NCBI RefSeq assembly: GCF_044704955.1 | Contig: NC_091987.1 | Coordinates: 211,296,001-211,360,000, forward strand | Reading direction: 5' to 3' | Source: Pristiophorus japonicus | Taxonomy: Eukaryota | DNA: 64,000 nucleotides | Shown: in pieces, positions 44,544 to 46,829 of the stretch | Position numbering within the stretch: position 1 is the first letter of the stretch | Layout of the letters: every line of letters begins with the position of its first letter | Translations under genes and position numbers: made by a program | The notes under the pieces: generated by a model | The model's input: only the letters and a program-made list of their open reading frames with translations | Database searches by the model: none | What the model was told of the DNA's origin: nothing

Positions 44544-45740
44544 CTCTTTAAGAGTAAGCAAATAAACATTAGGTCAAGTGACCCCCGATCTGGGGGACAC
44601 TCCAAACATTTCGCAAGGCCCTTTTTTTTTGTTTTTGTTTGGGGTTTTTTTTGTATTTTTGTAGATTTTTTTAATGTTTTTTTTTTGGGCTCTAAAACCA
44701 AAATTTACAAGTGCCCCCTATAAAAGGGGAGGGGGACACTAAAACCGGCATTTAAAACAAATTAAACTTTGAAACATATAAAATCAAATTAAAATTTGGT
44801 TGCCAGGGGTGATGATGCACTCCAGTCCCTCCGGCGCCCACCGCGTGCTCCATCTCCAGGGACACACTGGCGCGGATGTAGGCACGGAAGAGAGGCAGGC
44901 AGTCAGGCTGAACGACCCCCTCGACCGCCCGCTGCCTGGACCGGCTGATGGTACCCTTGGCCGTGCCCAGGAGCAGTCCTACGAGGAGGCCCTCGGACCT
45001 ACCCGCTCCCCTTCGCACAGGGTGCCCAAAGATCAGGAGAGTGGGACTGAAGTGCAACCAGAAATTGAGGAGCAGCCCCTTTAAATAATGGAACAGGGGC
45101 TGCAACCTCGCACACTCCATAAAAACATGGAACACGGACTCTTCCAAGGCGCAGAAATTGCAGGCGGCCTGGGAGCCCGTGAACCGGCTTAAAAATTTGT
45201 TGCACGGGACTGCTACGTGCACCACCCTCCAGGCCAAGTCCCCGATAAATATTGGGAGGACTCCCGCGTAGAGTGCCCTCCATCGGGGACCCCGCCTCCT
45301 CCGGACGGCAAGATGGTGCGCCATGGCGTGTCCGGACGGCAGACGAGGATGGCAAAGTTGAGAGTGTGCAGGAGCAGCCCGTACAGGAAACCCCTCCGTG
45401 CGGAACTGAAAGGCACGGAGGGGATTTCCCCGAGGCGGCTCAAGTTGTGAGGCGCCGGCTCCCGAGGGAGGTTCCGGGGTTTGGCGCCGATGAGGAATTC
45501 CGTCCGGACGGGGGTCAGTTCGGACAGGATCTCCCCACGTGCTTGAGCCTCCTCGACACACATAACGGAGTCAGGGCCCAGAGCTGTTTTTAGCGACTCG
45601 ATGGCATCGGCCGCGCGGCGGACGTCGGCCAAATTTAGGCGCCGTGCCAGCATGTCTGGCGCCATCCAGCCCGCTCCTCCGCCATCGAGCAGGTCCCTGA
45701 CCCTGGTCACCTCACCAGCCACAGCCCTCTCGTCCGCCTG
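44544..45740 (-). mobile_element. Tx1-clade L1, about 1.2 kb of ORF2 C-terminus plus 3' UTR, frameshifted
   Basis: CCHC zinc-finger-like motif CNFCALEESVFHVFMEC preceded by GDLAWRVVH, typical of the L1/Tx1 ORF2 C-terminus; 14-bp TSD at 44530-44543 and 45827-45840. Confidence 0.85.
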
Positions 45741-45748
45741 CAAAATTC

Positions 45749-45820
45749 AGCTTTTACCAAGATTTGAACTCGGATTGCTGGATGCAAAGTCCAGAGTGCT
45801 CACCATTACACCATTTAACC
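45749..45820 (-). pseudogene. tRNA-Gln(TTG) pseudogene fused to the 5' end of the Tx1 copy
   Basis: GGTTAAATGGTGTAATGGTGAGCACTCTGGACTTTGCATCCAGCAATCCGAGTTCAAATCTTGGTAAAAGCT: 72 nt with D and T arms and a TTG anticodon, acceptor stem disrupted. Confidence 0.85.
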
Positions 45821-46829
45821 AACAGTCAGCAGCTCTACAAACCTGTGAGTATCCTCACAGGTGCACACATTACAACCGTACTCTAAGGGATGTACCTTAA
45901 GTCTTAAGTCTTGCCCAAATGATACAGACACTTCCCTGGAGCACAGCTGGAAATTTAATGTGAAACAATATAAGCCAACCAGACACACTTGCTCACATCC
46001 AGTGCTGTCTTCATGTTAGGGTTAAGTTGGTTCAAATCAGACAGTCTCCTTCACATATTCAGTGCCACTGACTTTGATGAATTAAGCTCTATGCTTTGCA
46101 GGCAGAAGTTCAAATACAGTGTTAATCATCCCAAAGTGAATCAGAATTACCGAAAGCTGAGGGCTGTGAGAAATTTGTGACTGTGCTATTCCGGTATAGT
46201 TTCTCCAGGACTTTCTGTGCTGGCAGTAATCTTCAGGGTTCATTTTGTGGGATATGACAACAGTGTCTACTCTCCAGAAGTACTTAATTGGCTTTGAAGC
46301 GCTTTGACATGTCCAGTGGTTGTGAAAGGCGCTATATAAATATATGTCTTTCTTTTTATCTGGTCCCTATTACGACTTTGTCTTATTGCTGCACCATCTA
46401 GTCAAACACAAAATATGACGTTGCCACCAACATTTGTCAAAATTGCCCAAATTGTTTGCCACCTTCCCTTGAAGTCCCTGCCATGTATTGTACCGAGGCT
46501 GCCATTAATATCTAAGAACATAAGAATATGTTGCCATGCAGTGCCCTCCGGCATTCCCAAAGCTACTGCCATTCTTTTGAATGGTGCCATGACCCTCCAG
46601 AAGGCAAACCAGCAGCAGCTCCGTACAAGTTGTTGACGATTTCAGAGACATCACTTGGCCCCATCAGCTCTGATACCGAACCTATCTGTGTCCTCGGGTC
46701 ACCTCTAAGCCACCTCTAAGTCTTCGCTTTTCCAAAGAAAACAGTCAAACTTGTTCAATCTTTGCCGATAGCTGTATTCTCTCAGCTCTGGTACCATTCT
46801 TGTAAATCTTTTTTGCACTTTCTCCAGTG

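What the first reader, a model, noticed from the sequence alone, without database searches (positions are those of the whole stretch)
44544..45826. tRNA-Gln/Tx1 chimeric retrocopy inside a single TSD
Seen: between the two 14-bp target copies lie 6 nt of filler, a full-length 72-nt tRNA-Gln(TTG)-like sequence, about 8 nt, then the 5'-truncated Tx1, all in the same orientation. Established: L1 reverse transcriptase switches templates to small RNAs (U6-L1 chimeras). Inference: a template switch to tRNA during target-primed reverse transcription placed a Pol III internal promoter upstream of a LINE 3' end. That is the architecture of a newborn SINE, and it could inherit the target specificity.
Basis: partly seen in the sequence, partly recalled or inferred. 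Interest (0 to 1): 0.7.

Follow-up and report, generated by a model that had tools for sequence, protein, structure and literature searches.

The report
Retrotransposon captures a broken tRNA transcript
A full unprocessed copy of a defective, multicopy tRNA-like gene is joined to a truncated Tx1 jumping gene inside one insertion scar; the join occurs once in the genome and is not a new SINE family, but the same RNA sits in about a hundred other insertions, likely because the jumping genes' copying enzymes hop onto it.

Summary
Observation confirmed. On the minus strand, one 15-bp duplication (14/15 match) encloses an 85-nt tRNA-Gln-like unit and a 5'-truncated Tx1 (relative of Xenopus Tx1 ORF2), inserted in an LTR-like repeat that this Tx1 family targets. 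The 'filler' is the tRNA's own 5' leader and 3' trailer ending in TTTT, so a whole unprocessed Pol III transcript was likely copied. The junction occurs once genome-wide, and ten T>=4 runs, one at the junction, would stop Pol III before the Tx1 tail: not a SINE family and a poor founder. The donor is a tRNA-Gln variant with a broken acceptor stem, encoded by at least 30 gene-type loci (those checked lie between satellites). Of 102 independent dispersed copies, 25 join Tx1 at 22 different points, 26 join a CR1-like LINE, 20 sit in chains with 7SL, 5S, U2 or other tRNAs, and 4 sit at the Tx1 target with no Tx1 sequence. End-to-end template jumping is the best explanation (inferred). The scan already noted this Tx1 capture process elsewhere in this genome; new here are the defective donor family, its apparent over-use, and capture by two LINE clades.

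The parts
45826..45840 (-). 5' copy of the target-site duplication (15 bp; last A shared with the RNA leader)
   Evidence: empty paralogous sites carry one copy
45821..45826 (-). 5' leader of the pre-tRNA-like transcript (ACTGTT)
   Evidence: same leader type in 15 genome hits of this sub-variant; source genes read ...TTGC|ATCGTT
45749..45820 (-). 72-nt tRNA-Gln(TTG)-like body with broken acceptor stem (4 of 7 pairs); A-box-like 45813-45803 and B-box-like 45769-45761 (box consensus recalled)
   Evidence: Rfam RF00005 40.1 bits; cloverleaf not predicted for the 85-nt unit
45742..45748 (-). 3' trailer GAATTTT ending in a Pol III terminator-type T4 run; blunt junction to Tx1
   Evidence: source genes continue GAATTTTT|GTTG; T-run is 4 in 26 of 47 terminator-ended copies; Tx1 has G, not T, before the junction
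44544..45741 (-). 5'-truncated Tx1-clade LINE: frameshifted end of ORF2 (zf-RVT-like) plus T-rich 3' UTR ending AAAGAG, no poly(A)
   Evidence: 31% and 44% identity to Xenopus Tx1 ORF2 residues 975-1117 and 1120-1280; Pfam zf-RVT E 7.6e-05, below cut-off; 95.5% best, 93.9% median identity among 45 long hits
44529..44543 (-). 3' copy of the target-site duplication
45826..45874 (-). 5' part of the LTR-like target repeat (starts TGTAAT)
   Evidence: 88% to positions 1-49 of an empty copy, L125
44386..44543 (-). 3' part of the LTR-like target repeat, cut off at 44386 by another repeat
   Evidence: 92% to positions 35-192 of the empty copy

Best explanation
This is a one-off chimeric retrocopy: a Tx1 LINE inserted at its fixed site in an LTR-like repeat, and its reverse transcriptase likely ran off a broken Tx1 RNA and jumped onto the 3' U-tail of an unprocessed tRNA-Gln-like transcript, copying it to its first base. 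Shown: single duplication, target, unique junction, RNA-like ends, gene-type source loci with matching leader and trailer, about 100 similar independent events. Inferred: the donor genes lost acceptor-stem pairing and gained a terminator 4 nt after the tRNA, so RNase P/Z likely fail to process the RNA and it lingers with a free 3' end, which would make it a favoured jump template for both Tx1 and CR1-like enzymes. Inferred: the copy cannot found a SINE because Pol III would stop at the captured T4 run.
For: Unique junction (best 39 other hits start at query 90-95). Ends match transcript ends: 26 of 29 tail-selected copies start in the 6-nt leader; T-run is 4 in 26 of 47. Source genes: 30 of 30 loci found with the 3' flank carry the variant upstream; one retrocopy (L087) carries read-through source flank then Tx1 at the same target. 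Partners of 102 independent units: Tx1 direct 25 (22 distinct start points among 24 mapped, all sense; 14 with a duplication of 11 bp or more enclosing both parts), Tx1 tail of 25 nt or less 7, CR1-like 26 (25 sense by BLAST, 1 by eye), CR1-like 5' repeat 6, small-RNA chains 11, self-chains 9. Chains contain Rfam-scored 7SL (L058, L165), 5S (L162, L170), U2 (L079) directly after the unit, apparently from their first base. RtcB needs a cyclic phosphate and a 5'-OH, and 3'-OH or 5'-triphosphate ends sharply reduce ligation (PMC6789731, passages); R2 reverse transcriptase jumps serially across at least 10 templates in vitro (PMC8594491, passages). Tx1 copies chosen without regard to tRNA show small-RNA heads in 3 of 23 visible junctions and 0 of 16 target-selected ones. 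Divergence of head (4 of 85 nt from nearest copies) and body (4.5% from nearest) is similar.
Against: No biochemistry on this enzyme and no transcript evidence. The window's own junction is to an internal Tx1 break, which ligation would also explain; four terminal Ts resemble U6/L1. No gene-type parent of the window's sub-variant was found (0 of 15 hits; nearest source gene differs at 7 of 85 nt). 34 of 69 head-selected copies end in the T-arm, not at the terminator, and 7 of 9 such Tx1 junctions overlap by 1-3 nt, so a second route (trimmed RNA or internal annealing) exists. Partner classes were assigned partly by eye; the intact 5' ends of chain partners rest on recalled RNA starts.
Confidence: 0.72

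Rival explanations
1. RNA ligation first: RtcB joined the U-tailed donor RNA to a cleaved Tx1 RNA and the fused RNA was retrotransposed, as for U6/L1.
For: Blunt junction after four Ts, modal T4, all-sense orientation; mechanism shown for U6/L1 (PMC6789731, passages).
Against: Needs a 3' cyclic phosphate and 5'-OH; nascent Pol III RNAs end 3'-OH (recalled). In chains the downstream partners (7SL, 5S, pre-tRNA leaders, U2) seem to keep their first base, normally triphosphate or cap. Three or four Tx1 junctions have an extra A after the T-run.
Confidence: 0.12
2. Two steps or DNA-level capture: the tRNA copy inserted later at the Tx1 5' junction, or free cDNA was patched in during repair of the 5' end.
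For: The donor can insert without LINE sequence: 3 solo copies with their own duplication and 4 at the Tx1 target. No orthologous allele could be checked.
Against: No separate duplication around the tRNA; one duplication encloses both parts here and in 14 of 25 Tx1 chimeras; no antisense case among 25 Tx1 and 26 CR1-like joins.
Confidence: 0.06
3. The copy is a member or founder of a tRNA-Tx1 SINE family.
For: Head-plus-LINE-tail layout, intact-looking A and B boxes; two short tail chimeras (L055, L172) have no T4 run.
Against: One genome hit with one mismatch allowed; 10 T>=4 runs in the insert; recurring junctions have 3 and 4 hits, from duplications or different donor sub-variants at a truncation hot spot; 1.28 kb long.
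Confidence: 0.03
4. The donor itself is a minimal Pol III parasite: retrocopies carrying leader, promoter and terminator are transcribed again and re-copied by hitch-hiking on any LINE enzyme (compatible with the best explanation for this locus).
For: Each full copy is a self-contained transcription unit; 64 of 90 exact head hits are dispersed on C1-C19 against 9 gene-type, whereas intact-stem tRNA-Gln heads give 12 retrocopy-like among 20 on C1-C19 out of 978 hits; the window's sub-variant has 15 dispersed hits and no gene-type parent.
Against: Gene-type sources exist for the main variant in satellite arrays that assemble poorly, so the missing parent may simply be unassembled; no copy was seen carrying another retrocopy's flank; copy number is only about 100.
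Confidence: 0.15

Closest known systems
U6/LINE and other small-RNA/LINE chimeric retrocopies (PMC4476161 passages; PMC6789731 passages; PMC13174262 passages)
   Same: Full small RNA, sense, 5' of a 5'-truncated LINE in one duplication, ending in a short T-run; formed by several LINE clades (L1, L2, RTE in lizard).
   Different: Donor is an unprocessed defective tRNA with leader and trailer; human tRNA/L1 chimeras (n=21) are mostly tRNA halves in antisense; here Tx1 and CR1-like partners and multi-RNA chains.
Tx1 clade: Xenopus Tx1L; crocodilian Tx1-Mar, Tx1-8_Crp, Tx1-4_AMi and SINEU (PMC4494074, parts 1-4 of 5 read)
   Same: Tx1-clade ORF2, targeting of another mobile element (two crocodilian families prefer LTR retrotransposons), repeated independent 5' addition of small-RNA sequence.
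   Different: SINEU has master copies and U1/U2 heads; here there is no amplified master and the head is a Pol III pre-tRNA with its terminator.
Tailless retropseudogenes (PMC5322556, abstract and Results/Discussion read)
   Same: 3'-truncated or unprocessed tRNA copies with duplications, preferred break points, complementarity to the target; matches the solo and target-only copies that end at positions 73-75.
   Different: Reported there for therians and anole and tied to L1; here the mobiliser at the LTR-like target is likely Tx1, and most copies are fused to LINE ends.
tRNA-derived SINEs (SINE2) with a LINE tail
   Same: tRNA head with A/B boxes upstream of a LINE 3' end.
   Different: Single-copy junction, internal terminators, no family consensus.

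Membership tests
Tx1 clade non-LTR retrotransposon | ORF2 (APE endonuclease + RT) closest to Tx1 | tested here: met
   family copy L095: 58% identity over 501 aa to Xenopus Tx1 149 kDa protein, E 2e-186; Pfam RVT_1 and Exo_endo_phos; window piece aligns to its C-terminus. No tree was built.
Tx1 clade non-LTR retrotransposon | Target preference with short duplication | tested here: met
   1496 exact target half-sites; of the first 30, 16 are followed by Tx1, 13 empty, 1 other
Small-RNA/LINE chimeric retrocopy | Both parts in one duplication, same orientation, RNA ends equal to transcript ends | tested here: met
Small-RNA/LINE chimeric retrocopy | Absent together from the orthologous empty allele | not testable with these tools
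   no relatives held; the DNA runs holding the stretch are one sample and joints came from paralogues
U6/L1-type (RtcB ligation) chimera | 3' cyclic phosphate donor and 5'-OH acceptor; chimeric RNA exists before insertion | not testable with these tools
   indirectly disfavoured by chains
tRNA-derived SINE family | Many dispersed copies sharing one head-tail junction | tested here: not met
   1 hit; 22 distinct Tx1 starts among 24 mapped; recurrent junctions 3 and 4 hits
tRNA-derived SINE family | Pol III can transcribe head through tail (no internal T4+) | tested here: not met
   10 T>=4 runs, first at 45745-45742; termination itself not assayed
tRNA-derived SINE family | Internal A and B boxes | tested here: inconclusive
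   box-like motifs identical to intact tRNA-Gln genes of this genome at those places; activity untested
Functional tRNA-Gln gene | Seven-pair acceptor stem and cloverleaf | tested here: not met
   4 of 7 pairs in the window copy and in source gene L100; ARAGORN negative; alternative fold predicted
LTR retrotransposon long terminal repeat (target) | TG start, poly(A) signal, paired LTRs around gag-pol | tested here: inconclusive
   TGTAAT start and AATAAA seen in empty copies; paired LTRs and internal region not checked

The most novel reading that the evidence does not exclude
A tRNA-Gln gene that lost its acceptor stem and gained an early terminator has become an 85-nt tailless Pol III parasite that needs no LINE-derived tail: it spreads by letting Tx1 and CR1 reverse transcriptases jump onto its U-tail, is copied about two orders of magnitude more often per gene than intact tRNA-Gln, and some retrocopies act as new masters.
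Probability: 0.15. Interest if true: 0.75.

Novelty: new variant of a known kind. Interest (0 to 1): 0.42.

Why it matters
SINEs are thought to start when a LINE enzyme joins a tRNA to a LINE tail. This genome preserves about a hundred such raw events from one donor, with the source genes, so one can ask what makes an RNA a good capture template (here probably failed processing) and why most joins die (the donor brings its own terminator). Chains of whole Pol III RNAs are genomic evidence for serial template jumping by an APE-type LINE, studied mainly for R2 in vitro. The single locus itself is a dead insertion.

Tried and rejected
Sequencing runs: no RNA holder listed; four DNA runs of one sample and three runs of unknown kind. 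Laying contigs on the locus gave only paralogue joints, no usable empty allele; laying on the tRNA unit did not reveal a parent gene, and two unknown-kind runs laid nothing, which is no evidence on expression. First homologue search (longer proteins, E<=1e-60) found nothing; the second worked. Atlas searches named only generic RT/endonuclease clusters, so the CR1, RTE and L2 labels of window reference repeats rest on recalled peptide motifs. The bacterial promoter/terminator scan is irrelevant to Pol III and found nothing. Automatic microhomology calls were noisy because reference Tx1 copies differ by 5-10%; I draw only a weak conclusion. Nine near-identical copies on C23/C3501 looked like a family but share their flanks over the whole fetched stretch at about 98% (3 pairs tested): segmental duplication. 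Earlier-notes look-up by sequence found nothing. Literature searches for a shark Tx1/tRNA report gave 0 papers, 1 unrelated paper and no direct match in listings; subscription papers and Repbase/Dfam were not searchable, and no supplements were read (the Kojima alignments and the human chimera table could bear on novelty).

Full report
OBSERVATION. The element lies on the minus strand. Rfam scores a tRNA at 45820-45749 (40.1 bits); ARAGORN does not call it. A 15-bp direct repeat, 14 of 15 identical, stands at 45826-45840 and 44529-44543. Between them: leader ACTGTT (its A shared with the repeat), the 72-nt body, GAATTTT, then Tx1 from 45741 to the family's 3' end AAAGAG at 44544. The anticodon is TTG but the acceptor stem pairs at only 4 of 7 positions.

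THE LINE AND ITS TARGET. A long copy of the family is 58% identical over 501 aa to Xenopus Tx1 ORF2 and has RT and APE domains; the window's two frameshifted pieces align to its C-terminus. The window copy is 95.5% identical to the nearest and 93.9% to the median of 45 long hits. Both flanks are halves of one LTR-like repeat. A 24-nt half-site has 1496 exact hits; of the first 30, 16 continue into Tx1, 13 are empty with one copy of the duplicated sequence, 1 is other. So the duplication is a true target-site duplication and the family is target-specific. The window has two more Tx1 copies in the same repeat, without small-RNA heads.

IS IT A SINE? No. The junction pattern, one mismatch allowed, has one hit; the best 39 other matches to the junction region lack the tRNA (only 40 of 3873 candidates scored). 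The insert holds ten T>=4 runs, the first at the junction; oligo-T as Pol III terminator is stated in PMC4494074. Two junctions recur, with 3 and 4 hits: these reduce to 2 and 3 independent events, the latter with three different donor sub-variants at a Tx1 truncation hot spot.

THE DONOR. The head is not a decayed normal tRNA but a conserved variant: its 3' pattern has 41 exact hits and its 5' pattern 90, controls 0. Ten loci on C26, C27, C31 and unplaced contigs share long flanks; in the two scanned, the gene sits in about 1 kb between a 12-bp and a 16-bp satellite. A search with the 3' flank returned 40 scored hits; all 30 fetched carry the variant upstream. These genes read ...TTGC|ATCGTT-body-GAATTTTT|GTTG, and dispersed copies start and stop at the bars. 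Related cluster genes with an intact or near-intact stem share the flanks but have GAATGCTT or CAATTCTT in place of the T-run, so the variant lost stem pairing and gained an early terminator (inference on order). The window's sub-variant (ACYGTT-GGTTAAA) has 15 hits, none with cluster flanks; its parent is unassembled, lost, or a retrocopy.

THE CLASS. I examined 120 units. Six are gene-type, 11 were dropped as duplicates by shared flanks, and one more, leaving 102. Partners, assigned by BLAST and by eye: Tx1 direct 25; Tx1 tail of 25 nt or less 7; Tx1 target with no Tx1 sequence 4; read-through then Tx1 1; CR1-like body 26; tandem 5' repeat leading to a CR1-like ORF1 6 (ORF seen in 4); other small RNA 11; another donor unit 9; solo with own duplication 3; unclassified 10. 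All Tx1 and CR1-like joins are sense. Counted before the last removal: 26 of 29 tail-selected units start in the leader; of 69 head-selected units 22 end at the terminator, 11 at positions 70-76, 34 in the T-arm, 2 earlier; the T-run is four in 26 of 47. Chains include donor-7SL-Tx1 in the LTR target (L058), donor-7SL in a 17-bp duplication without LINE (L165), donor-5S (L162, L170), donor-U2 (L079), 5S-donor-Tx1 (L179, L198). Among Tx1 copies picked by body, 3 of 23 visible 5' junctions carry 5S or tRNA (Rfam run on 20 of 29 loci); among target-picked copies 0 of 16.

ENRICHMENT. Exact 25-nt heads: the variant has 64 of 90 hits dispersed on C1-C19 and 9 gene-type; the intact-stem head has 978 hits, 20 listed on C1-C19, of which 12 look like retrocopies, 6 like genes and 2 like cluster pieces. 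Per gene this is over 100-fold more capture of the variant even with 40 source genes. Caveats: only 10 of the other 958 were inspected (all cluster-type), arrays may be collapsed, expression is unknown.

MECHANISM. Shown: co-enclosure, orientation, RNA-like ends, sources, recurrence. Inferred: target-primed reverse transcription of a broken Tx1 RNA, jump to the donor's U-tail, copying to its first base, joining to the target with one shared A. Jumping is preferred to RtcB ligation because RtcB needs cyclic-phosphate and 5'-OH ends (PMC6789731 passages), while chain partners seem to keep their first base (RNA starts and end chemistry recalled; Rfam model coordinates alone do not prove it; the U2 piece in L079 may be a U1/U2 SINE). 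Serial jumping is shown for R2 (PMC8594491 passages). For this junction alone ligation is not excluded.

COMPARISON AND VERDICT. Small-RNA/LINE chimeras are known for L1, L2 and RTE (PMC4476161 passages); human tRNA/L1 chimeras are mostly antisense halves (PMC13174262 passages); crocodilian Tx1 families carry U1/U2 heads and some target LTR elements (PMC4494074). My searches found no paper on this in sharks. Earlier notes of this scan describe the same Tx1 capture process with other tRNAs in this genome, seen after I had reached this reading; they are not independent support. New variant of a known kind; interest 0.42.

Noticed in passing
window 58250-58321 (+): tRNA-like head (ARAGORN tRNA-Thr AGT, Rfam 35.6 bits) followed by sequence repeated many times in the window; likely the head of a common SINE, with similar heads near 23320 and 61001.
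   Followed up: partly
window 9303-9837 (+) and 15483-16416 (-): Two more short Tx1 copies in the same LTR-like repeat at the same site; the second has sequence of a Tx1 copy on both sides, suggesting nested or tandem insertion.
   Followed up: partly
L098-L107, L202-L231 (C26, C27, C31, unplaced contigs): Defective tRNA-Gln-like genes amplified as part of a large repeat, between a 12-bp and a 16-bp satellite in the two loci scanned.
   Followed up: partly
L036, L055, L062, L063, L172, L180: A second Tx1 target: a fixed site on the antisense strand of CR1-like repeats (TTTCATGCACAAGG...), with captures joined to only 10-15 nt of Tx1 tail; L055 and L172 have no T4 run and are the best proto-SINE candidates.
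   Followed up: partly
L186-L193, L195 (C23, C3501): One donor/CR1-tail insertion amplified nine times within a ~98% identical segmental duplication.
   Followed up: yes
L079 1294-1728; L180: U1, donor and U2 pieces in one string (L079); donor, tRNA, 5S and U1 in L180, duplicated in inverted orientation.
   Followed up: no
window 32920-34484, 11220-11664, 48469-48796: A 67-bp tandem array (23 copies) and two arrays of a 33-bp unit.
   Followed up: no
L048/L072 (C5) and L069/L070 (C5): Tandem runs of donor-Tx1 chimeras with the same junction and shared spacer, probably local duplications followed by deletions.
   Followed up: partly
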